Of a stretch of 64,000 bases of DNA, positions 3,629-57,862 are shown piece after piece. How positions within the stretch are numbered: the stretch's first letter is position 1; every line of letters starts with the position of its first letter. The position numbers and the translations under genes are program-made. Origin of the DNA: Candidatus Micrarchaeota archaeon (lineage in GTDB: Archaea > Micrarchaeota > Micrarchaeia > Anstonellales > Bilamarchaeaceae); NCBI GenBank assembly GCA_043821365.1, contig JBDRCX010000003.1, positions 20,175-84,174 of the forward strand, in the 5' to 3' direction. Under the pieces are notes generated by a model that was not told the DNA's origin, ran no database searches, and was given only the letters and a program-made list of their open reading frames with translations.

Positions 3629-4223
3629 AACGTGCCATACGTTCAGTTTCGTCTCTTTTCTTAATTGCATAACTTGCTTGCATGTCTCCCTTTGCTGTAG
3701 ACATGATTTCATCTGCAAGTGATTGTGAGAGAGATTTTGCTTTATTGAAAGAACTCATTAATGCAGCAAGAGCCATGTTTCTCAAAGCCATATCTAATCG
3801 TCTTGTTGCTGATACGTCAACTGCAATCTGATAGCTGACACCACCATGAGAAACTCTTGTAACATCTTCTCTTGGAGCAGCATTTTCCAATGCCTTTATA
3901 AGAACTTGAACTGGGTTTTCTTTTGTCTGTTCTTCAACTATTGCAAATGCATCTTCGACAACTTTCAATGCCTTGAGTTTTTTACCTTGCATTCTTCCTT
4001 TTGTTCTAATAACTTTACCAGAGGTTTTTTCACCTGTACCTCCTCTCATAAGTTTGTTTGCAAGTCTCTCAACAACATTTACTTGTGTTTTACCCAAAAC
4101 CTTTTTTGCGTTCCTACCAAATGTGTGTGGAACCATAATTGGGTTAAGAGATATGTTCTGAGCAAGGCTCATGTCCTTTATCACAATATCATTCAATGAA
4201 TATTTACCAAATAATTTATCCAT
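3618..4223 (-). CDS. rps7: 30S ribosomal protein S7 (uS7)
   Basis: 201 aa with typical uS7 sequence (KALENAAPREDVTRVSHGGVSYQIAVDVS). Directly downstream of S12, as in the conserved str cluster. Confidence 0.95.
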   Translation of the reverse strand: MDKLFGKYSLNDIVIKDMSLAQNISLNPIMVPHTFGRNAKKVLGKTQVNVVERLANKLMRGGTGEKTSGKVIRTKGRMQGKKLKALKVVEDAFAIVEEQTKENPVQVLIKALENAAPREDVTRVSHGGVSYQIAVDVSATRRLDMALRNMALAALMSSFNKAKSLSQSLADEIMSTAKGDMQASYAIKKRDETERMARSAR

Positions 4224-9351: not shown

Positions 9352-9469
9352 GGGCCCGTAGCTCAGCCAGGCTAGAGCGTTCGACTGATAAAAACTTTTT
9401 TGGAAAAAAAGTTTTACAAAAAACTTATCAGTGATCGAAAGGTCATGAGTTCAAATCCCATCGGGCCCA
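9352..9469 (+). tRNA. tRNA-Ile (anticodon GAU) with a ~43-nt intron 3' of the anticodon
   Basis: GGGCCCG..GCTC-AGCCAGGCTA-GAGC-G-TTCGA-CTGATAA[intron 9392-9434]TCGAA-AGGTC-ATGAG-TTCAAAT-CCCAT-CGGGCCC-A. The intron contains a hairpin at 9392-9415 and a segment complementary to the anticodon arm (BHB-compatible). Followed by T5. Confidence 0.85.
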
Positions 9470-11091: not shown

Positions 11092-12177
11092 ATGTTTTTG
11101 TGCTTCATTCTAGTCATGGCGGGTTATTTTGATGGTGAGAATGAAAACCCCACCATAATTTGTGATGAAAAGATTCTTCTCCCAGATTATCTGCCAGATA
11201 TACTATCTCAAAGAGAAAAAGAGCTTCAATACATAGCAGATTGTACAAAGCCATTACTAAAACGGAACACCTCTCAAAATCTATTTATCTATGGTTCTTC
11301 GGGAACAGGCAAAACAACCTGTCTAAAATATTTGATTCGTGAATTGTCTGAACAATCTTCTGCCGTGCTTCCAGTTTATATTAACTGCTGGGAAAACCAA
11401 ACTCAGCTTTCAATTTACAATAGAATTGTTGAAGAGATGCGACTTCCAATTCCAAGGCGTGGTCTGGCACCTGATGAAATATTCGATAAGATCCTTCAGT
11501 TTGTTAAAAACTACAAAAAACCAATCCTGCTTATTCTTGATGAGATGGATGCCATACGTCGCGAAGAAATTTTATATGCTATTTCGAGATCAAATGAAAA
11601 AATGCTTACATTCGGAATAATCGGCATATCTAACAACAAATCATTACTCTCAAAACTTGATCAGAGAATCAAGAGTTCACTACGGTTTTCTGAAATGGAA
11701 TTCAAAGAATATGGCGAGGATCAATTGTTTTCGATTTTGCGTTTACGAGCTGAAAAAGCACTTCTACCAAATAGTTTTGATGAAAAACTTCTTAGGAAAA
11801 TTGCGCGTTCTGTTGAAGATGGTTCTGCAAGAGTTGCAATAGAAAGATTGTGGAAATCAGCTAAGCATGCAGAAAAACAAAGAAAAACAAAAATTATGAT
11901 ACAGGATTTAGAAGATATTCTGCTACTAACTCCTGATTTTAAAAAACAGGAACTAAATCTATCAAAAGAGGAAAAATGTATCCTGGAAATTCTTAAGAAT
12001 GGCCAATTAAGTTCCACCGAAATTTACGAAGATTTCTCCAAAAAATTCAATAAATCAAAACGTCAAATAAGAAACTATCTTGATTCACTAGAAAAGAAGC
12101 GTCTAATAGAATCAGAAGAAATTACATCTGATGTCATGCTTAAATTAAAGAAATTTAAATTGATTAATCGGAATTGA
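11092..12177 (+). CDS. cdc6: Orc1/Cdc6 AAA+ replication initiator family protein
   Basis: Walker A GSSGTGKT, Walker B LILDEMD, sensor-1 IGISNN, sensor-2 GSARVAIERL, and a C-terminal winged helix. Probable start at M9 (11116). Confidence 0.9.
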   Translation: MFLCFILVMAGYFDGENENPTIICDEKILLPDYLPDILSQREKELQYIADCTKPLLKRNTSQNLFIYGSSGTGKTTCLKYLIRELSEQSSAVLPVYINCWENQTQLSIYNRIVEEMRLPIPRRGLAPDEIFDKILQFVKNYKKPILLILDEMDAIRREEILYAISRSNEKMLTFGIIGISNNKSLLSKLDQRIKSSLRFSEMEFKEYGEDQLFSILRLRAEKALLPNSFDEKLLRKIARSVEDGSARVAIERLWKSAKHAEKQRKTKIMIQDLEDILLLTPDFKKQELNLSKEEKCILEILKNGQLSSTEIYEDFSKKFNKSKRQIRNYLDSLEKKRLIESEEITSDVMLKLKKFKLINRN

Positions 12178-15447: not shown

Positions 15448-16280
15448 GCTCCTATCATCATTCTTAATATGTCTCTTATACCCGGTGCAAATCCCATTAT
15501 TATAATTACTAATGCAATGTAATGTTTATCTTCTATTGATATTTTTTCTTTGTTTATTACATCTGCAGCTAAGAATGCTATTCCTGTTTTTATAAGGTAA
15601 AAGAACAAATATGTTCCACCTATTGCTCCTATTGCTGCTGAGAATACATGTTGTTCAAAATATCTAATACCAGATATTGTAGAAAAATAATCAATTACAA
15701 AAAATGTCGCAGCTCCATCAAGTGCCTGGCCAGCTACGACTGTGGCCAGTATTTCATTTTTGAAAAATTTCCACGCTATATAGGTTGGTATGGCTGCCAA
15801 AATCAATATTGGTATAGAGTAAATCCAATATTCCATGAATGGTATCAATATCAAGAAATGGGGGAGCCAGAGTGCCAATCCAACATACTTAACCAAGTCC
15901 ATTCTCTTCAATTTATTGAATACTGCGATGGATGCTAGAAGTATTGCTGCAGTCAATATATACACTCCTGGGGTTACTGTAACATATCCATAATCCCAAA
16001 GATGACTGTTAAGCACAAATTCATGTATTGGGGTTACTGGAGCAAAAACATTTGAATCAATTGAATCAGTTACAACTCTTACTGTTGATCCGAATAATAC
16101 GAAAGCCATAATTCCAAAAATAAAATTTTCATCAATTTTCAATTTTATTGTTTTGAACCATCTATGTATGAAAAAAATCGCTACCATTGCAATTACTGCG
16201 TATGTAATCGTATTCACTATATTGTATCCGCTATGATCCCAAATAGGCTTGATAAAGTATTCGTATATAAAGTTTTCCAC
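15444..16280 (-). CDS. multi-pass membrane protein (DUF63-like)
   Basis: 278 aa, 7-8 TM helices, N-terminus MENFIYEYFIKPIWDHSGYN. Confidence 0.45.
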   Translation of the reverse strand: MENFIYEYFIKPIWDHSGYNIVNTITYAVIAMVAIFFIHRWFKTIKLKIDENFIFGIMAFVLFGSTVRVVTDSIDSNVFAPVTPIHEFVLNSHLWDYGYVTVTPGVYILTAAILLASIAVFNKLKRMDLVKYVGLALWLPHFLILIPFMEYWIYSIPILILAAIPTYIAWKFFKNEILATVVAGQALDGAATFFVIDYFSTISGIRYFEQHVFSAAIGAIGGTYLFFYLIKTGIAFLAADVINKEKISIEDKHYIALVIIIMGFAPGIRDILRMMIGA

Positions 16281-16292
16281 CGTACCACTTCC

Positions 16293-16592
16293 ATGGATAG
16301 TAGACTGAAAAACATTATAAAATCAAGTGTGCGTTCATCAATTGAAAAATTATTAGATCAATCACGTGATTCATACCTACATAAAAACAAGGCCAGATCT
16401 ATTCGCTATGTAAAAATGGCGTTTGAATTATTAAAAAAGCACAAAATCAAATTGCCAAAACATCTAAGAAATAGTTTCTGCAGAAAATGTTATCTTATTT
16501 GGATTCCAGATAAAACAATAAAAATTCAATTTGATAAGAGAAGTAATTGTTTACGGGTACAATGTAATTGTGGGCATTCAAAAAGACTTTAA
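16293..16592 (+). CDS. rnp4: RNase P protein component 4 (Rpr2/Rpp21 family)
   Basis: Zinc ribbon FCRKCYLIWIPDKT...LRVQCNCGH plus a basic helical N-terminus. The track ORF starts at 16164, but that part overlaps the upstream gene; the ATG at 16293 is the plausible start. Confidence 0.7.
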   Translation: MDSRLKNIIKSSVRSSIEKLLDQSRDSYLHKNKARSIRYVKMAFELLKKHKIKLPKHLRNSFCRKCYLIWIPDKTIKIQFDKRSNCLRVQCNCGHSKRL

Positions 16593-37850: not shown

Positions 37851-37976
37851 CGGGCCCAGAGGGATTTGAACCCTCGACCTGCGGATTCCACCTTTTACCA
37901 AAAAGTGGAGCCAAAAGTGGCTCTCCATTTGATAAAATTAAAAGTCCGACGCTCTACCAAGCTGAGCTCTGGGCCC
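37851..37976 (-). tRNA. tRNA-Lys (anticodon UUU) with a ~52-nt intron 3' of the anticodon
   Basis: Minus strand reads GGGCCCA-GA-GCTC-AGCTTGGTA-GAGC-G-TCGGA-CTTTTAA[intron]TCCGC-AGGTC-GAGGG-TTCAAAT-CCCTC-TGGGCCC-G. The intron carries two hairpins (GAGCC/GGCTC and CCACTTTTT-GGT-AAAAGGTGG). Confidence 0.85.
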
Positions 37977-41702: not shown

Positions 41703-41795
41703 TATCCCCTTCGAATAGAATAAACAAGCTGGCGAGAGGTGTGGGGACAGTTATGTCCGATCTGTTCCCGCCAAGCCTGCCCATTCCATCCCCTA
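41703..41795 (-). promoter_or_regulatory. G+C-rich structured leader immediately upstream of the pilin start codon
   Basis: Nested helices 41725-41734/41769-41779 and 41743-41750/41762-41769. An unpaired CACCUCU lies between them. AGGGGAU boxes sit at both ends, one directly before the ATG. Confidence 0.35.
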
Positions 41796-44792: not shown

Positions 44793-46172
44793 ATGAAATT
44801 AACATTTAACGGAGCAGCCCAGATGGTTACTGGATCCTGTTATCTGTTGGAAGCAGCAGGACAAAAGATACTAATTGATTGTGGTATGTTCCAAGGTACC
44901 AAAGACATAACACGATTGAATTACGAACCATTCAGATTCAATCCAAAAGAAATTTCTTATCTATTACTTACGCATGCACATATAGATCATTCAGGTCTTA
45001 TTCCAAAACTAGTCAAAGAGGGGTTTAGAGGTAAAATAATTGCAACACCACCCACGGTTGATCTTGCAAAAATTATGTTGGAAGATTCAGCTCATGTTAA
45101 TGAAGATGATACATTTTTAGAAAATAAAAGACGTCTTAGGTTGGGTCTTGCACCAAGAAATCCATTATACACTCTTGATGATGTAAATACAGCATCAAAT
45201 CTTTTCAAATCTCTTGGTTATGATAAATCTTATACAATAAATAAAACATTCCGAATGATCTTTCGAAATGCTGGACATATATTTGGATCTGCCATAATAG
45301 AACTCTGGGTTACTGAAAATAACAAAACAACAAAAATTGTGTTCTCTGGTGATCTTGGTCAATGGAATACTCCAATTGTTAGTAATCCAACTCTAATTGA
45401 AGAAGCTGATTTTGTACTTGTAGAATCAACCTATGGAGACAGAACTCATGGGGTATCTGGTATACGCGGTGATCTTCTATTGAATGTGGTTAAGGAAACA
45501 TTCAATTCCAATGGCAAATTAATGATTCCTTCTTTTGCAGTTGAAAGAACCCAAGAACTACTCTTCTATCTTCATCAGGAAATTCGTGATGGTAAATTTC
45601 CATCTCAAAAAATATTCCTCGATAGTCCTTTGGCCATAGCAGTTACTGAAATTTTCAAAAAACACTTGAGTTATGCTTCACCTGAATTAAAAAAAGAGTT
45701 TTCAAATCCATTTTCCTTCAAGCAATTACAATATCTAAAAACTGCAAAGGAATCTCGTAGGATGAATGATTATGGTCAGCCGTGTATTATAATTGCCGGA
45801 AGTGGGATGTGTACTGCCGGAAGAATAAGACATCATCTCAAACACAATCTTTGGAACTCTAAAAACACTCTTCTTTTTGTTGGTTATCAAGCAGAAGGAA
45901 CGTTAGGGCGTGTAATTCTTGACGGTGCAGAAGTTGTGAGGATGATGGGGATTGAGGTTGCAGTAGAAGCAAAAGTAAAAAAAATCGATAGTTTTTCTTC
46001 TCATGCAGATGCAACAGAACTTGTCAAGTGGGTTGGTGGTTTCAAAAACAATCCAAAAATATTTGTTGTTCATGGTGAAGTTGCATCTACCCAAGCACTT
46101 AGTACTAATCTGAAAAATAAAGGATTTAGAACTCACATTCCCAAATTTGGTAGCACAGTTGAACTCAAATAA
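44793..46172 (+). CDS. metallo-beta-lactamase / beta-CASP family ribonuclease
   Basis: THAHIDHSG, ESTYGDR, and C-terminal SSHAD/VHGE motifs. Confidence 0.8.
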   Translation: MKLTFNGAAQMVTGSCYLLEAAGQKILIDCGMFQGTKDITRLNYEPFRFNPKEISYLLLTHAHIDHSGLIPKLVKEGFRGKIIATPPTVDLAKIMLEDSAHVNEDDTFLENKRRLRLGLAPRNPLYTLDDVNTASNLFKSLGYDKSYTINKTFRMIFRNAGHIFGSAIIELWVTENNKTTKIVFSGDLGQWNTPIVSNPTLIEEADFVLVESTYGDRTHGVSGIRGDLLLNVVKETFNSNGKLMIPSFAVERTQELLFYLHQEIRDGKFPSQKIFLDSPLAIAVTEIFKKHLSYASPELKKEFSNPFSFKQLQYLKTAKESRRMNDYGQPCIIIAGSGMCTAGRIRHHLKHNLWNSKNTLLFVGYQAEGTLGRVILDGAEVVRMMGIEVAVEAKVKKIDSFSSHADATELVKWVGGFKNNPKIFVVHGEVASTQALSTNLKNKGFRTHIPKFGSTVELK

Positions 46173-53570: not shown

Positions 53571-54616
53571 TCCCCCATTTGCTCTTGCAAGTCTTTAGTC
53601 ATTTTTGAATATAAAAATTTGAACATGTCCTTTGGATCCTGTTTGAATGATTCTGCTTTTACAACTGCATCCTCAACTATTTTTACTGCCCAATCACCAA
53701 CTTCTTTTTCATGTTGTTCATTCCACAATCCTTTTTTGTTCATGTAAAGTTTTAGTCTTTTGATTGGGTCTCTGTCTCTCCAATATGCTAGGTCAGTTTC
53801 TGGCCTATACTTTTTTGGATCATCTGCTGTTGTGTGCGCTCCCATTCTGTACGTTATTGCTTCAATTAAAATCGGACCTTTTCCGTTTTTTGCATTTTCA
53901 ATTGATTCTTTCACTGTTTTGTAAACAGAAACAACATCATTACCATCTATTTGGATTCCTTTGAAACCATAAGCAAGTGCTTTTTGGGCAATAGTTTCTG
54001 ATTTAGTTTGCCATTTTCTTGGAACTGATATTGCCCATTGATTATTTGATATTAGAAAAACACAAGGTGCATTTAGTACGCCTGCAAAGTTTAATGCATC
54101 GTGGAAATCCCCTTCACTTGTTGATCCGTCTCCACCGCATACAACTACTGCTGCTTTTTCACCTTTCATTTTTAGTGCATGCGCAGCACCAACTGCGTGA
54201 GTGTACTGTGTTCCTATTGGTATGGCATGCGGAAATGATTTTACATTTTTATCTAATTTTAAACCATCTTCAATTCCCATCCAACCAATGTTTATTGTTT
54301 CCAACGGTACTCCTCGTATGTAATAGCCAAAACTTTCTCTATAAGTTGGAAAAAACCAATCATCCTTTTCCATTGCAAGTGTAATTCCAACTGAAATTGC
54401 TTCCTGGCCTTCAAGTGGAGGGTAAGTGTACATTCTTCCGGTTCTTTGCAATGCTATACATTTTTTATCCCATATTCTAGCAAGATACATTAATCGATAC
54501 ATTTTGTCTAATAATTCGTTTGATAGTTTAGGATCAAGACTTTCATCACTATTACCTTCTTTATCTATAATTTGTAAGTAGTCGACACTACCTTCAAATA
54601 CTTTTTGAATAGACAT
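53558..54616 (-). CDS. 2-oxoacid dehydrogenase E1 component alpha subunit (TPP-binding)
   Basis: TPP motif CGGDGSTSEGDFHDALNFAGVLNAPCVFLISNNQWAIS. Confidence 0.9.
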   Translation of the reverse strand: MSIQKVFEGSVDYLQIIDKEGNSDESLDPKLSNELLDKMYRLMYLARIWDKKCIALQRTGRMYTYPPLEGQEAISVGITLAMEKDDWFFPTYRESFGYYIRGVPLETINIGWMGIEDGLKLDKNVKSFPHAIPIGTQYTHAVGAAHALKMKGEKAAVVVCGGDGSTSEGDFHDALNFAGVLNAPCVFLISNNQWAISVPRKWQTKSETIAQKALAYGFKGIQIDGNDVVSVYKTVKESIENAKNGKGPILIEAITYRMGAHTTADDPKKYRPETDLAYWRDRDPIKRLKLYMNKKGLWNEQHEKEVGDWAVKIVEDAVVKAESFKQDPKDMFKFLYSKMTKDLQEQMGECFQ

Positions 54617-54734
54617 AGTAAACTAACAGAAGTAAATTTAATAAAGGAATTTTTATGTGGCTTGTTTGGTTTTTATAAATAAAAAATGGGACAATTGAAT
54701 TTTGTTCAATGGTCCAACATTTTATCAGAATAAA

Positions 54735-55102
54735 ATGGGGTCACTGAGAATTTCACTCGCATCGCTCGTGAAAAAATCGCCGAGCGATCGGCGAAGATTT
54801 GAATTTCTGAAGCTTTTTTTACTTGGTTTTTGCCAAGCTTTTTCCAAAAAAGCTTGCTCAGATCACCGCCTTTTCCGCCCACCTTTTGGTAAAAGGTGGA
54901 TCAAAACTTGTTGTTGATTTTCGCTGCGCGAAAATAAGCGTACTCAAAACCGCGTAGCGGTTTTCAACCGTAAGTTTTTGATCCAAACTTTTTTCCAAAA
55001 AGTTTGGCCCGAAGGCGATAGTCTACCAGGTTAGCCCATGACCCCATGAACGTAAGTGAATGGGGCATTCAAGAAATAACAGTTTCTTGTACATGACCCC
55101 AT
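54735..55102. ncRNA. hairpin-dense G+C-elevated element: candidate structured RNA(s), unassigned
   Basis: Exact long-range complement ATGGGGTCA (54735-54743) / TGACCCCAT (55039-55047). At least 8 local stem-loops of 5-11 bp, one enclosed three-way junction, and four ATGGGG(T)CA(T) boxes. Hairpins are near-identical to the tRNA-intron hairpins. The only ORF (54702..54917) looks spurious. Confidence 0.4.
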
Positions 55103-55162
55103 GCAATATGTTAGGAGGTTAGTTATGCTAACTTATTTAAACTTAGGCAACATTCTAATTTT

Positions 55163-57862
55163 ATGAAATTTACATATCTTGCTTTGGTATTGTTATTGTT
55201 GTCAACTGCCTATGCTGTTAATGTTTCGTTATGTCAGAAAATAGACACTCCTGGTGAATATGTTGTTAATGAGTCACTCTCAGGTGTATCTCCATATGTG
55301 CCACCACCATTTGATGTGGATGTTTGTATATGGATTAATGTATCTAATGTTGATTTCGATTGCAATGGTTCTACTATGACTGGTCCGGATGATTATATTG
55401 CAGTTGTTATTTATAGTCAATCGGAACAACTATCTAATGTTACAATTAGAAATTGTGATATTTCTGATTATGATTATGCATCTCATTCATATAATTCAAC
55501 TGTCACTTATATCAATAATAATGTGAGTAGTGTTATTTCGGGTGGATTCTATTCAGAATATTCCAACTCAACATATATTGATAATCGTGTTAATGACGCA
55601 GTAGGGTATGGTTTTTACTCTGACACCTCTGAGGTTACTTACTTAGATAATAGTGTTAACGATACTGGGATAACCGGTTTTTATCTTCTAGCTTCAAATT
55701 CAACATTTACTGGAAACAATGCGAGTTACTGTGGAAATCATGGATTCTATACCTATGGTTATACCTCAACATTTTTCAACAACACTGCAAAAAATAATGC
55801 TGAATACGGTTTCTATCTTCAAAATTCAACTACTACTGCCATAAATAATACTGCGCATGATAATGACAATTCTGGTTTTAGGTCTGAAGATTCTATTTCA
55901 CTCTTTAGCTATAATGACGCATATTCTAATGATATAGGTTTTATTACTGTATATTCTAATTCTACTTTCATAAACAACACTGCTTTTAACAATATTAATG
56001 GTTTTGATTCTCGTTATTCTAATTCTACTTTCATAAACAACACTGCTTTTAACAATTCTAATTTTGGGTTTAATCCGTCTGGTTTCTATTCTATAGGATC
56101 AAATGATTCGTTTACGAATAACTTTGCTTATGATAACTCTGGCTATGGTTTCAGATTAGTTGACTCCAATTCTATATATTTACTAACAGACAATTTCGCT
56201 AATGGTTCTGAATATGGTTTCGTAATAACAAATTCAAATGCAACATTTACAAATAATAATGCCAATAATAATGATTATGGTTTCTTTATCTCTACTTCCT
56301 CGAATGCAACATTAACAGATTGTGTTGCATATGCCAATAACATTAATGGAATGCGGATTTACAATCCATTTTACACAACTATAACCAATTCTTGGTTCTA
56401 TTACAACAATCTATCATTCGGTGCAACTACATCTGGAGCAACTTGGCCACTTGAAATAATCAATAGTAAGTTTGGTTATTCCAGTGTGAATATTTCCATA
56501 AATGACGATTTTAATTCTTCATATTATATAAACGAAACTACTTCACCAGGATCTCCACCTACGGGATATTCATCATTTAGAAATAAATACATCGCATTGT
56601 ATGACTTGGATCTTGGCAATTCTGTACTAGATCTTCTTCAATTCCATTGGTCAGATTCAGAAACAAATGGTTATAATGAATCTTCAATGACTTTATTTGC
56701 ATGGAATGGCACCAGTTGGATTCTTGTTCCTGATCAATCACTTGATACTGCTTCAAACACACTTAATGTGACTAATTTCACTTCCATCAATGATCCAAAT
56801 GTTCTTGGTCTATTTGCTAATACAACATCATCTGGTGGAAACAACAATGGTGGCCAATCAGATCCAGAACTTTCTATTGAATTTGAAACTGATTGTTTCA
56901 ATCATACAATAATTGTAACAAGCGGTAATGATCCAGTAGAAAATGCTAAAGTTGTAGTCAATGGAGATACAATAGGTTATACGGATGAAAACGGTGAAAT
57001 AGAATTTGAAGGATGCACTGATTCAGTAATAATCCGTGCAACTAAAAGCGGTTATGATTCAGCATTATATAAGGAAGATTTAGACTGTGATTGCAGCCAA
57101 GGAGGCCAAGAACCTGAATGCACTACTGACCAGAACTGTGCATATAATCAAGAGTGTACAGACAATGTCTGTGAAGACATTGATTGTTCCTGCGGAACAA
57201 TCCAAGATCATGAATGTGTTTCCTATGAATGCTGTTCAGATTCAGAATGTTCTACAGGCTATTCATGTGTGTCAAATAACTGTGAACAAACTCCAGAAGA
57301 TGAATGTTCAACTGATGCAGACTGTGCTGAAACACAATACTGCTCAAACGGAAGCTGTCTTGATGTAACAGGAACATGTGGTTATGTTGCAAACCATGCA
57401 TTCGTAGCATATGAATGCGGAACTGATGCAAACTGCCCAACCTGTCCAAATGGTCTTTGCATCAACAATGAATGTGTTGCAAATGATCTTACTTGTGAAG
57501 ATGGTTTAGTTGGAAGCACAGCAAATTGTGCAGCAACAGAAGATAATGCTCCTTGTGCAAACTGTGAATATGAAGTAACAACTCCAGATGGTCAAACTCT
57601 AACAGGAACAACAGATGAAAATGGTAACTTTAATCTACCATTAAACCTTGTTGGTACCTACACAGTTTCACTCATTAAAGGTGGAGTTGAAGTATCTTCA
57701 ACTGAAGTAACCTCAAGTCAAACTACAGTTGTTGACGATGATAATCCACCAGTTGTTGGTTCTGATCCAATGCAGTTTATTTTCTTAGCAGTGATTTTGT
57801 TGCTAATAGCTGCAATAGTGATATACTGGTATAGTACAAGGGGAAAGAGTAAGTACAAGTAA
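55163..57862 (+). CDS. large surface protein: parallel beta-helix (PbH1-like) repeats + Cys-rich modules + C-terminal TM anchor
   Basis: Signal peptide. About 15 repeats of ~21 aa (..GF....SNSTF.NN.A.NN..). Cys-rich CxxDxxC modules (CTTDQNCAYNQECTDNVC, CSTDADCAETQYCSNGSC). C-terminal TM helix plus RGKSKYK. Confidence 0.7.
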   Translation: MKFTYLALVLLLLSTAYAVNVSLCQKIDTPGEYVVNESLSGVSPYVPPPFDVDVCIWINVSNVDFDCNGSTMTGPDDYIAVVIYSQSEQLSNVTIRNCDISDYDYASHSYNSTVTYINNNVSSVISGGFYSEYSNSTYIDNRVNDAVGYGFYSDTSEVTYLDNSVNDTGITGFYLLASNSTFTGNNASYCGNHGFYTYGYTSTFFNNTAKNNAEYGFYLQNSTTTAINNTAHDNDNSGFRSEDSISLFSYNDAYSNDIGFITVYSNSTFINNTAFNNINGFDSRYSNSTFINNTAFNNSNFGFNPSGFYSIGSNDSFTNNFAYDNSGYGFRLVDSNSIYLLTDNFANGSEYGFVITNSNATFTNNNANNNDYGFFISTSSNATLTDCVAYANNINGMRIYNPFYTTITNSWFYYNNLSFGATTSGATWPLEIINSKFGYSSVNISINDDFNSSYYINETTSPGSPPTGYSSFRNKYIALYDLDLGNSVLDLLQFHWSDSETNGYNESSMTLFAWNGTSWILVPDQSLDTASNTLNVTNFTSINDPNVLGLFANTTSSGGNNNGGQSDPELSIEFETDCFNHTIIVTSGNDPVENAKVVVNGDTIGYTDENGEIEFEGCTDSVIIRATKSGYDSALYKEDLDCDCSQGGQEPECTTDQNCAYNQECTDNVCEDIDCSCGTIQDHECVSYECCSDSECSTGYSCVSNNCEQTPEDECSTDADCAETQYCSNGSCLDVTGTCGYVANHAFVAYECGTDANCPTCPNGLCINNECVANDLTCEDGLVGSTANCAATEDNAPCANCEYEVTTPDGQTLTGTTDENGNFNLPLNLVGTYTVSLIKGGVEVSSTEVTSSQTTVVDDDNPPVVGSDPMQFIFLAVILLLIAAIVIYWYSTRGKSKYK
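55952..56056 (+). repeat. exact 42-bp direct repeat (period 63 bp) inside the beta-helix repeat region
   Basis: TATTCTAATTCTACTTTCATAAACAACACTGCTTTTAACAAT occurs at 55952-55993 and 56015-56056. Confidence 0.9.

What the first reader, a model, noticed from the sequence alone, without database searches (positions are those of the whole stretch)
54735..55102. Hairpin-dense ~370-nt element with tRNA-intron-like modules between the dehydrogenase operon and the surface-protein gene
Seen directly: inside the 546-bp divergent intergenic region, a stretch visibly richer in G+C than its flanks is almost entirely self-complementary. (i) ATGGGGTCA (54735-54743) is the exact reverse complement of TGACCCCAT (55039-55047), closing a ~313-nt unit. 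The same box recurs at 55060-55065 and 55094-55102, giving four boxes in alternating orientation. (ii) Local stem-loops lie at 54777-54794 (7 bp, GCGA loop), 54822-54837, 54834-54856 (10 bp), 54879-54899 (9 bp), 54917-54935 (8 bp), 54946-54964 (8 bp), 54983-55007 (11 bp) and 55042-55065. GGATCAAAACTT (54898-54909) pairs with AAGTTTTTGATCC (54972-54984) and encloses two of these hairpins as a three-way junction. (iii) Several arms have two mutually exclusive partners: 54846-54856 can pair with 54834-54843 or 54809-54820, and CGAGCGAT (54781-54788) can pair with ATCGCTCG (54761-54768) or sit inside the 54777-54794 hairpin. (iv) CCACCTTTTGGTAAAAGGTGG (54879-54899) is 20/21 identical to the hairpin in the tRNA-Lys intron as transcribed (37888-37908). 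Hairpins 54983-55007 and 54834-54856 are near-copies, in reverse complement, of the tRNA-Ile intron hairpin (9392-9415). Inference: this is either one large structured RNA, a cluster of small RNAs, or a nest of intron-derived or mobile hairpin modules. Its size and closing helix resemble an archaeal SRP RNA, but I could not find the helix-8 signature. The repeated boxes could instead be protein-binding sites (regulator or origin-type).
Basis: partly seen in the sequence, partly recalled or inferred. Interest (0 to 1): 0.7.

Follow-up and report, generated by a model that had tools for sequence, protein, structure and literature searches.

The report
Hidden proline tRNA with three introns
The hairpin-rich stretch is a proline tRNA gene on the opposite strand, split by three archaeal introns that make up three quarters of its length. 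This kind of gene is already known from the same group of tiny archaea (Micrarchaeota), so it is a good catch but not a new type of RNA.

Summary
It is not a large novel RNA. On the minus strand, 55045-54736 is a 310-nt tRNA-Pro(CGG) gene made of four exon pieces (38, 15, 6 and 14 nt). Three introns interrupt it: 136 nt at position 37/38, 53 nt at 53/54 and 48 nt at 59/60. The spliced 73 nt form a tRNA-Pro(CGG) cloverleaf. Each junction has the 3-nt bulge / 4-bp helix / 3-nt bulge motif cut by the archaeal splicing endonuclease. Forty-four orthologues in Micrarchaeota genomes and metagenomes keep the exons, with compensatory stem changes. Their inserts range from none to three, and one relative has the same three. 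The ATGGGGTCA/TGACCCCAT boxes are the acceptor-stem strands. The two extra boxes at 55060-55102 belong to a 5' leader hairpin that looks like an internally deleted copy of the tRNA, found in 7 relatives. ARMAN-2 (Micrarchaeota) is already reported to have a tRNA-Pro with introns at 53/54 and 59/60. Verdict: a new member of a known kind, at the long end of the size range. Splicing was not shown experimentally.

The parts
55134..55141 (-). TATA-like box (TTTAAATA on the minus strand). It is the candidate promoter of the pre-tRNA, and may be shared with the divergent 899-aa gene, whose ATG at 55163 lies 27 nt from the box centre.
   Evidence: Read directly. All 7 relatives with the leader hairpin have an A/T-rich box starting about 36-42 nt upstream of the upstream GGGG copy (in L019 the better match lies further upstream, with a weaker one close to the copy). 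The window's tRNA-Ile and tRNA-Lys have TTTTAAAA at -37..-30. This is inference; no transcript data.
55061..55100 (-). 5' leader hairpin ('minihelix'): GGGGTCATG (a copy of tRNA positions 1-9), a 7-bp hairpin CAAGAAA/TTTCTTG, then TGCCCCA.
   Evidence: Folds at -15.4 kcal/mol. The same arrangement is found in L041, L045, L036, L051, L019 and L048. In relatives its 3' half aligns with the tRNA T-loop-to-3'-end, with deletions.
55046..55060 (-). Leader spacer TTCACTTACGTTCAT between the minihelix and the tRNA 5' end.
   Evidence: Conserved as TTC(A/G)..TA(C/T)G(C/T)TCA in L045, L036 and L041, less closely in L051.
55008..55045 (-). Exon 1: tRNA positions 1-37 (acceptor 5' strand, D arm, anticodon stem 5' strand, anticodon CGG, G37).
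   Evidence: Matches the intron-less tRNA-Pro(CGG) of L010, which Rfam and ARAGORN both call.
54872..55007 (-). Intron 1, 136 nt, at the canonical position 37/38.
   Evidence: Splice-motif check: central helix TTCG/CGGA 4/4, bulges GGC and AAA, outer helix 7 bp (anticodon stem), inner helix weak. The architecture is shared with L041 and L001, with 10 pairs keeping a change on both sides.
54857..54871 (-). Exon 2: positions 38-53 (AGGCGGTGATCTGAG).
54804..54856 (-). Intron 2, 53 nt, at position 53/54.
   Evidence: Strict bulge-helix-bulge motif: central helix TCTG/CAGA 4/4, bulges AGC and AAT, outer helix 3 bp, inner helix 10 bp. L041 has a 30-nt intron at the same site with the same central helix and 3' bulge.
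54798..54803 (-). Exon 3: positions 54-59 (TTCAAA, most of the T loop).
54750..54797 (-). Intron 3, 48 nt, at position 59/60.
   Evidence: Central helix TTCA/TGAA 4/4, bulges AAT and ATT. The 5-bp outer helix is the T stem and forms only once intron 2 is removed. 46/48 nt identical in L041. Introns at the same site occur in L011 and L029.
54736..54749 (-). Exon 4: positions 60-73 (TCTCAGTGACCCCA). No encoded CCA.
54681..54735 (-). 3' trailer: TTTT directly after A73, then a 27-nt hairpin (54715-54689, GGACCATTGAA..TTCAATTGTCC) followed by T6 (54686-54681). Probable transcription stop.
   Evidence: Read directly. Equivalent hairpins with compensatory changes lie downstream of the gene in L001 and L041. 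The terminator role is inferred.

Best explanation
The element is the gene for tRNA-Pro(CGG) of a Micrarchaeota (DPANN) archaeon. It is read from the minus strand (55045 to 54736, 310 nt) and is interrupted by three bulge-helix-bulge (BHB) introns at positions 37/38 (136 nt), 53/54 (53 nt) and 59/60 (48 nt). Shown here: the four exon pieces join into a canonical 73-nt cloverleaf, every junction carries the splice motif, and relatives conserve only the exons. Inferred mechanism: transcription starts near 55110 from the TATA-like box at 55141-55134. The 5' end of the transcript is a stable hairpin that is a decayed, internally deleted copy of the tRNA. The intron hairpins compact each insert so that the two splice sites sit 4 bp apart in 3-nt bulges. 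The archaeal splicing endonuclease (the broad-specificity epsilon-2 type described in Micrarchaeota) cuts there, and an RNA ligase joins the exons. Introns 2 and 3 use overlapping T-loop nucleotides, and the full intron-3 motif forms only after intron 2 is gone, so splicing is probably stepwise. RNase P removes the roughly 65-nt leader, and CCA is added afterwards.
For: (1) ARAGORN calls the in-silico spliced 73 nt tRNA-Pro(cgg), with a full cloverleaf.
(2) The two ends of the element match the intron-less tRNA-Pro(CGG) of L010, which both Rfam and ARAGORN detect.
(3) 45 orthologous genes, including the window, splice in silico to sequences 62-73/73 identical to L010. Their inserts range from none (L010, L020, L052) to three (window, L041), at sites 15/16, 37/38, 53/54 and 59/60.
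(4) The cloverleaf holds on the 18 distinct spliced sequences: 94.7% of cells paired, 7 pairs with changes on both sides, 0 of 500 shuffles as high, and all slid registers much worse.
(5) The splice-motif rule check gives 4/4 central-helix pairs and 3-nt bulges at all three window introns. Introns 2 and 3 have the strict form, and L041 repeats it at the same sites.
(6) The window's spliced sequence is identical to L001's, although the neighbouring E1-alpha proteins are only 76% identical and the introns diverge. This argues for purifying selection on the exons.
(7) Literature: ARMAN-2 (Ca. Micrarchaeum acidiphilum) has a pre-tRNA-Pro(GGG) with strict-BHB introns at 53/54 and 59/60. Its tRNA-Pro(CGG) has a D stem with one Watson-Crick pair, as seen here. 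Its epsilon-2 endonuclease cuts strict and relaxed motifs in vitro (PMC3239211). Up to three introns per archaeal tRNA, and stepwise motif formation, are described in PMC8450103.
(8) The window encodes an RNase P Rpp21 subunit at 16164-16592, so leader removal by RNase P is plausible.
Against: There are no RNA data, so splicing, its order, the transcript ends and the fate of the leader are all inferred. The helix on the intron side of the intron-1 motif is weak (one pair, then two mismatches), so that motif is relaxed rather than strict. The endonuclease type of this organism could not be checked: no EndA or RtcB gene lies in the window. I cannot tell from 64 kb whether a second tRNA-Pro(CGG) copy exists, so an inactive copy is not strictly excluded. 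Standard detectors do not find the gene, so the call rests on my manual exon model plus comparison with relatives.
Confidence: 0.93

Rival explanations
1. It is a disabled tRNA gene: a tRNA-Pro(CGG) wrecked by successive insertions of hairpin modules and no longer spliced into a working tRNA.
For: Hairpin modules are shared with other introns. Relatives show nested hairpin-pair insertions and partial tRNA duplicates. tRNA-Pro(UGG) could in principle read CCG by wobble (general knowledge), so loss might be tolerated. No detector calls the gene.
Against: The exons carry no damaging change and are identical to L001's spliced sequence. Differences from other relatives are compensatory. All three inserts sit exactly where a 4/4 central helix with 3-nt bulges forms, and L041 repeats this. 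Random insertions would not do that.
Confidence: 0.04
2. The 55-nt piece between the two CATGGGGTCATG repeats (55100-55046) is a fourth intron at position 3/4. In that case the upstream copy would provide the true 5' end of the tRNA.
For: The TATA-like box is spaced from the upstream GGGG copy roughly as in ordinary tRNA genes. In the window and in L045 the palindromic CATG gives a 4/4 central helix with GGG bulges (hand check on the sequences). The minimum-energy fold pairs the upstream copy with the 3' acceptor strand.
Against: The same hand check gives only 3/4 (L036), 2/4 (L051, L048) and 1/4 (L041, L019) central-helix pairs. The flanking helices are absent or displaced even in the window. 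The closest relative, L041, fails. Either route gives the same mature tRNA, so nothing requires an intron here.
Confidence: 0.05
3. It is one large structured non-coding RNA of about 370 nt (SRP-like, RNase-P-like or novel), or a cluster of small RNAs.
For: Very low folding energy on both strands, and G+C above the flanks.
Against: No Rfam family matches above noise on either strand. Only the 73 exon nucleotides are conserved across 45 loci, and the rest is missing in L010, L020 and L052. The low energy is explained by intron hairpins plus the tRNA stems.
Confidence: 0.01
4. The repeated ATGGGGTCAT boxes are protein-binding sites (a regulator operator or origin recognition boxes) in a divergent intergenic region.
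For: Four boxes in alternating orientation between divergent genes.
Against: Two boxes are the two strands of the tRNA acceptor stem, and they change together with it in relatives: GGGGCCA/TGGCCCC and GGGGTCG/CGACCCC. The other two belong to the leader hairpin, which copies that stem. The stretch between the boxes is not A/T-rich. The only Cdc6/Orc1-like gene is at 11092-12177.
Confidence: 0.01

Closest known systems
Pre-tRNA-Pro(GGG) of Candidatus Micrarchaeum acidiphilum ARMAN-2, with two T-loop introns at 53/54 and 59/60 (Fujishima et al. 2011, PMC3239211, Fig. 1C)
   Same: Same phylum and same amino-acid family. Introns at the same two adjacent T-loop positions, both with strict hBHBh' motifs. 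The aberrant D stem with a single Watson-Crick pair, reported for ARMAN-2 tRNA-Pro(CGG), is also present here.
   Different: Different anticodon (CGG). There is a third, 136-nt intron at 37/38. Introns total 237 nt, 76% of the gene. A structured leader hairpin is present. The sizes of the ARMAN-2 introns were not compared.
Three-intron tRNA genes of Thermoproteales (Sugahara et al. 2007/2008, cited in PMC4033280; PMC8450103)
   Same: Up to three BHB introns per gene, one canonical plus non-canonical sites. Adjacent introns have to be removed stepwise before the next motif can form.
   Different: Different phylum and a different endonuclease architecture ((alpha-beta)2 rather than epsilon-2). 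Typical intron length there is 12-25 nt (PMC4090602), against 48-136 nt here.
Intron transposition among tRNA genes in Thermoproteales (Fujishima et al. 2010, cited in PMC4033280)
   Same: Similar intron sequence in different tRNA species of one genome. The 5' module of intron 1 resembles the tRNA-Ile intron (32/37). Its 3' hairpin resembles the tRNA-Lys intron hairpin at the equivalent position (21/22).
   Different: Only modules are shared, not whole introns. The Lys-type hairpin has its loop flipped. The sequences are A/T-run-rich hairpins, so some convergence cannot be excluded.
Long functional archaeal tRNA introns, such as the tRNA-Trp intron carrying a box C/D small RNA (PMC4090602)
   Same: A long intron at 37/38 whose structure is conserved.
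   Different: No RUGAUGA box C is visible in the window's introns (sequences; not searched systematically), and there is no Rfam snoRNA match above noise. No evidence of a second function.
Archaeal SRP RNA
   Same: Similar overall size, a closing helix and a raised G+C content.
   Different: No match to any Rfam SRP or RNase P model even at E<=10. The closing helix is a 7-bp tRNA acceptor stem.

Membership tests
Archaeal tRNA gene with BHB introns | Removing the proposed introns gives a canonical cloverleaf tRNA with the conserved residues | tested here: met
   ARAGORN calls the 73-nt spliced product tRNA-Pro(cgg). U8, A14, G18G19 and the T loop TTCAAAT are present. The cloverleaf is 94.7% paired, with 7 doubly changed pairs across 18 distinct orthologues.
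Archaeal tRNA gene with BHB introns | A bulge-helix-bulge motif (3-nt bulge, 4-bp helix, 3-nt bulge, cleavage after the second bulge nucleotide) at each exon-intron pair | tested here: met
   Intron 1: TTCG/CGGA 4/4, bulges GGC and AAA, outer helix 7 bp, inner helix weak (relaxed form). Intron 2: TCTG/CAGA 4/4, AGC and AAT, outer 3 bp, inner 10 bp (strict). Intron 3: TTCA/TGAA 4/4, AAT and ATT, outer 5 bp after intron 2 is removed, inner 3 bp.
Archaeal tRNA gene with BHB introns | Introns lie at positions already documented for archaeal tRNAs | tested here: met
   37/38 is the canonical site. 53/54 and 59/60 are reported in ARMAN-2 tRNA-Pro(GGG) and tRNA-Cys (PMC3239211).
Archaeal tRNA gene with BHB introns | Orthologous genes keep the exons while the inserts vary or are absent | tested here: met
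   45 loci have inserts of 0-146 nt at 37/38, with 53/54, 59/60 and 15/16 introns only in some. Exon identity to L010 is 62-73/73.
Archaeal tRNA gene with BHB introns | The host encodes a splicing endonuclease able to cut non-canonical sites (epsilon-2 or (alpha-beta)2 type) and an RtcB-type ligase | not testable with these tools
   No EndA or RtcB domain was found among the 61 window ORFs of at least 110 aa, and the rest of the genome is not available. The epsilon-2 enzyme is known from ARMAN-1/2 (PMC3239211).
Archaeal tRNA gene with BHB introns | A spliced mature tRNA and excised (often circular) introns are seen in RNA | not testable with these tools
   No transcript data are available.
Archaeal SRP RNA / RNase P RNA | A match to the family covariance model (helix 8 motifs, or the P4 and conserved regions) | tested here: not met
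   No hit at gathering score in the window. No SRP or RNase P hit at E<=10 in 54500-55300 on either strand.
MITE or other small mobile element | Terminal inverted repeats with a target-site duplication, and several copies in the genome | tested here: not met
   The exact box occurs only at this locus in the window. Blast of the introns and the leader against the window finds no full or large copies. No transposase or integrase in the window. Only 64 kb could be searched.
Box C/D small RNA hosted in a tRNA intron | C (RUGAUGA) and D (CUGA) boxes with about 12-nt guides | tested here: inconclusive
   By eye there is no TGATGA in the window's introns (sequences). I did not run a systematic box search. 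The only snoRNA-type Rfam match is noise outside the gene (20.7 bits against a threshold of 55).

The most novel reading that the evidence does not exclude
The non-exon parts may not be inert. (a) The 5' leader hairpin copies the tRNA's acceptor stem and changes with it in relatives: GGGGCCA/TGGCCCC in L048 and GGGGTCG/CGACCCC in L019. It could be a working cis-element of long multi-intron pre-tRNAs, for example a 5'-end cap against exonucleases, or a folding switch that can pair either with itself or with the true acceptor strands. (b) The 136-146-nt intron 1 keeps its four-hairpin architecture through compensatory changes. It could persist after excision as a stable circular RNA with a role of its own.
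Probability: 0.12. Interest if true: 0.5.

Novelty: new member of a known kind. Interest (0 to 1): 0.3.

Why it matters
First, annotation. A tRNA that Rfam and ARAGORN both miss would be scored as absent from this genome. In reduced DPANN genomes, a count of missing tRNAs feeds into completeness estimates and into claims of host dependence.

Second, this gene is an extreme example of a disrupted tRNA. It has the maximum reported number of introns (three), and 76% of the gene is intron. The canonical intron is 136 nt (146 nt in two relatives), above the 11-129 nt range given for archaea in a 2014 review (PMC4090602).

Third, the 45-locus series shows one orthologous gene with anything from no intron to three. 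It includes nested hairpin insertions and modules shared with other tRNAs' introns. That is useful material for studying how BHB introns are gained and grow. None of this changes the current picture of archaeal tRNA splicing.

Tried and rejected
- Rfam at gathering score on the whole window, and at E<=10 on 54500-55300, both strands: only noise.
- ARAGORN, default and with anticodon-loop introns up to 300-400 nt, does not find the gene because of the two T-loop introns.
- Exact look-up of the neighbouring E1-alpha protein in the contig collection: not on record.
- First metagenome scan with the window-specific 30-mer: no match. The degenerate pattern then gave 35 loci.
- A fourth intron at 3/4 for the upstream repeat: considered and rejected, because the central helix is not kept in relatives (hand check sequences).
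- Leader-trailer pairing that might allow endonuclease trimming of the 5' end: examined by eye, no complementarity found.
- C/D boxes in the introns: none seen by eye in the window. Some relatives have TGATGA in intron 1, but the window has TGATCC at the equivalent place.
- MAFFT alignment of the seven leader hairpins was too poor to build a covariance model, so no model search was run.
- My first automated gene extraction failed through an over-strict regular expression and was redone.
- Literature searches for a leader minihelix in archaeal pre-tRNAs, or for RNase P in Micrarchaeota, found nothing specific.
- The Pfam scan of all 61 ORFs found no endonuclease, ligase, integrase or transposase.

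Full report
**Observation.** Every box and stem-loop is at the stated coordinates. The exact 9-mer ATGGGGTCA and its complement occur three times here and nowhere else in the window; one-mismatch matches elsewhere are at chance level. The 378-nt stretch folds far better than dinucleotide shuffles on both strands: -139.6 against -91.5 +/- 5.5 kcal/mol (z -8.8), and -140.7 (z -8.2). G+C rises to 0.40-0.47 against 0.23-0.29 in the immediate flanks. No Rfam family reaches threshold in the window except three tRNAs elsewhere. A permissive scan of 54500-55300 gives only noise.

**How the identity emerged.** The flanking genes are a 2-oxoacid dehydrogenase operon (E1-alpha, E1-beta, E2, E3) and a beta-helix surface protein. 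Loci encoding close E1-alpha relatives all come from Micrarchaeota genomes. In L010 those two ends are contiguous and form a 73-nt intron-less tRNA-Pro(CGG), found by both Rfam and ARAGORN. Reading the window's minus strand against that tRNA gives this layout:

| Piece | Coordinates (minus strand) | Length | tRNA position |
|---|---|---|---|
| Exon 1 | 55045-55008 | 38 nt | 1-37 |
| Intron 1 | 55007-54872 | 136 nt | at 37/38 |
| Exon 2 | 54871-54857 | 15 nt | 38-53 |
| Intron 2 | 54856-54804 | 53 nt | at 53/54 |
| Exon 3 | 54803-54798 | 6 nt | 54-59 |
| Intron 3 | 54797-54750 | 48 nt | at 59/60 |
| Exon 4 | 54749-54736 | 14 nt | 60-73 |

ARAGORN calls the joined exons tRNA-Pro(cgg) with a full cloverleaf. 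It finds nothing in the unspliced gene.

**Tests of the intron model.**
- *Splice motif.* I applied the bulge-helix-bulge rule: a 4-bp central helix flanked by two 3-nt bulges, with cleavage after the second bulge nucleotide. All three window introns have a 4/4 central helix and 3-nt bulges.
  - Intron 2 is strict: TCTG/CAGA, a 3-bp outer helix and a 10-bp inner helix.
  - Intron 3 is strict once intron 2 is removed: TTCA/TGAA, with the T stem as the 5-bp outer helix.
  - Intron 1 has TTCG/CGGA and the anticodon stem as outer helix, but a weak inner helix, so it is the relaxed form.
- *Relatives.* A metagenome scan with a degenerate exon-1 pattern added 35 loci. In all, 45 orthologous genes including the window could be spliced in silico. 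Exon identity to L010 is 62-73/73. Inserts range from none (L010, L020, L052), through a single 33-146-nt intron at 37/38 (most loci), to two introns (L011, L029, L013) and three (window, L041).
- *Closest relative.* L041 has the same three sites with matching central helices. Its intron 3 is 46/48 identical, while intron 2 differs in length (30 against 53 nt).
- *Cloverleaf covariation.* On the 18 distinct spliced sequences the cloverleaf is 94.7% paired, with 7 pairs changed on both sides. None of 500 shuffles reached that, and all slid registers were far worse.
- *Selection on exons.* The window's spliced sequence is identical to L001's, although the neighbouring E1-alpha proteins are only 76% identical and the introns have diverged.

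- The 'closing helix' boxes 54735-43 and 55039-47 are the 3' and 5' strands of the acceptor stem.
- Hairpins 54983-55007, 54946-64, 54917-35 and 54879-99, and the 54898-909 / 54972-84 helix, are the internal structure of intron 1. That structure is kept in L041 and L001, with 10 pairs retaining a change on both sides.
- Hairpins 54834-56 and 54822-37 are local folds of intron 2. The alternative partner 54810-19 forms the 10-bp helix beside the intron-2 splice motif.
- The 54777-94 hairpin and its alternative pairing both lie in intron 3.
- So the 'mutually exclusive partners' are local hairpins competing with splice-site helices. In addition, the motifs of introns 2 and 3 share T-loop nucleotides 55-57. 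This fits the stepwise removal described for closely spaced archaeal introns (PMC8450103).

**Resemblance to the other introns in the window.** It is real. Intron 1 begins with a module that is 32/37 identical to the tRNA-Ile intron. It ends with a hairpin 21/22 identical to the reverse complement of the last hairpin of the tRNA-Lys intron. In the forward sense that match is 22/28 including flank, with the 3-nt loop flipped. Compared with the short introns of L026 and L051, intron 1 of the window, L001 and L041 looks like the same intron with a two-hairpin block inserted in its terminal loop and an extra 3' hairpin. This matches the module sharing reported as intron transposition in Thermoproteales (cited in PMC4033280). 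Because these are A/T-run hairpins, some convergence cannot be excluded.

**The upstream boxes (55060-55102).** They belong to a 40-nt hairpin at 55100-55061. It consists of GGGGTCATG (a copy of tRNA positions 1-9), a 7-bp stem-loop, then TGCCCCA. A 15-nt spacer follows, and then the tRNA.
- Seven loci including the window have this arrangement, out of 45 that had enough upstream sequence to check.
- In L048 and L019 both strands of the hairpin's outer stem equal that genome's own acceptor stem.
- In L036, L051, L048 and L041 the 3' half aligns with the tRNA T-loop-to-3'-end, with internal deletions.
- A TATA-like box lies about 36-42 nt upstream of the upstream GGGG copy in the loci that have the hairpin (L019 is ambiguous).
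- I therefore read it as an internally deleted copy of the tRNA that now forms the 5' end of a leader of about 65 nt.
- A fourth intron at 3/4 was considered, because the palindromic CATG gives a perfect central helix in the window and in L045. The helix is not kept in L041, L019, L051 or L048, so I give that reading low weight.
- The window encodes an RNase P Rpp21 subunit, so ordinary leader removal is plausible.
- Whether the hairpin does anything is unknown.

**Comparison with what is known.** Fujishima et al. 2011 (PMC3239211) studied ARMAN-2, a Micrarchaeota member. They report that 56% of its tRNA genes are disrupted, that a pre-tRNA-Pro(GGG) has strict-BHB introns at 53/54 and 59/60, and that its tRNA-Pro(CGG) has a D stem with one Watson-Crick pair. 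They also report an epsilon-2 endonuclease that cuts strict and relaxed motifs. The window gene shows the same two T-loop sites and the same odd D stem (G10-U, G11-C, C12/A, U13-G). Three introns is the reported maximum (PMC3239211, PMC8450103). Reported archaeal intron lengths are 11-129 nt with medians of 12-25 nt (PMC4090602). Intron 1 (136 nt here, 146 nt in L001 and L041) and the total intron load of 237 nt are therefore at or slightly beyond the known range.

**Limits.** Nothing here shows RNA. The endonuclease and ligase genes are not in the window. The presence of a second tRNA-Pro(CGG) copy cannot be checked. The promoter, terminator and splicing order are inferred from sequence and from relatives.

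**Verdict.** It is a new member of a known kind, of modest interest.

Noticed in passing
window 55061-55100 (-); L041, L045, L036, L051, L019, L048 just upstream of their tRNA-Pro(CGG): A leader hairpin that copies the tRNA's acceptor stem is present in 7 of the 45 loci that could be checked. In L048 and L019 both of its strands carry the same substitutions as that genome's real acceptor stem. This means recent or repeated duplication, gene conversion, or selection for cross-pairing.
   Followed up: partly
L033 (minus strand, inside intron 1), L019 (inside intron 1), L005 about 230-330: A two-hairpin block of about 58 nt (for example CATGTTCGA..TCGAACATA + GCACC + CATTGTTCGG..CCGAACAATAG) is inserted in intron 1 of L033; L021 has the same intron without it. 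A related block sits in a different intron background in L019, and downstream of the gene in L005. It is a candidate small mobile hairpin-pair module.
   Followed up: no
L005 about 210-395; L045 about 3690-3835: Some 115-185 nt downstream of the intact tRNA lies a partial second copy, made of the 3' half of an L002-type intron 1 plus the tRNA 3' end and its trailer. It could be a recombination or integration scar.
   Followed up: no
L010 about 2128-2165; L044 downstream of the tRNA (two tandem copies): A conserved small element of the form GGGGG-AGAAG-hairpin-CAACAACCCCA followed by a T run, with compensatory changes in the hairpin. It could be a terminator or a small RNA. There is no Rfam hit in L010 at gathering score.
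   Followed up: no
window 54681-54715 (-): A hairpin GGACCATTGAA..TTCAATTGTCC followed by T6 lies about 20 nt after the tRNA and about 65 nt before the E1-alpha start codon. L001 and L041 keep it with compensatory changes. It is a probable terminator, or possibly an operator of the dehydrogenase operon.
   Followed up: partly
window 9352-9469 (+) and 37851-37976 (-): tRNA-Ile(GAU) and tRNA-Lys(UUU) carry canonical introns of about 43 and 50 nt. Default ARAGORN misses both. In intron mode it calls the Lys gene 'tRNA-Stop(tta)' because it misplaces the intron.
   Followed up: partly
window 41725-41795: A 70-nt G+C-rich island (0.60) in an otherwise A/T-rich intergenic region, upstream of a small pilin-like ORF on the minus strand. 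No Rfam match at E<=1.
   Followed up: partly
window 11092-12177 (+), 16164-16592 (+), 44793-46172 (+): A Cdc6/Orc1-like AAA+ protein, an RNase P Rpp21 subunit and a beta-CASP ribonuclease are encoded in the window. No integrase, transposase, EndA or RtcB was found.
   Followed up: yes
L013 631-857; L030 and L022: L013 has an extra 74-nt intron in the D loop (15/16). L030 and L022 (the same sequence) appear to carry a T-loop insert of more than 200 nt, which I did not resolve.
   Followed up: no
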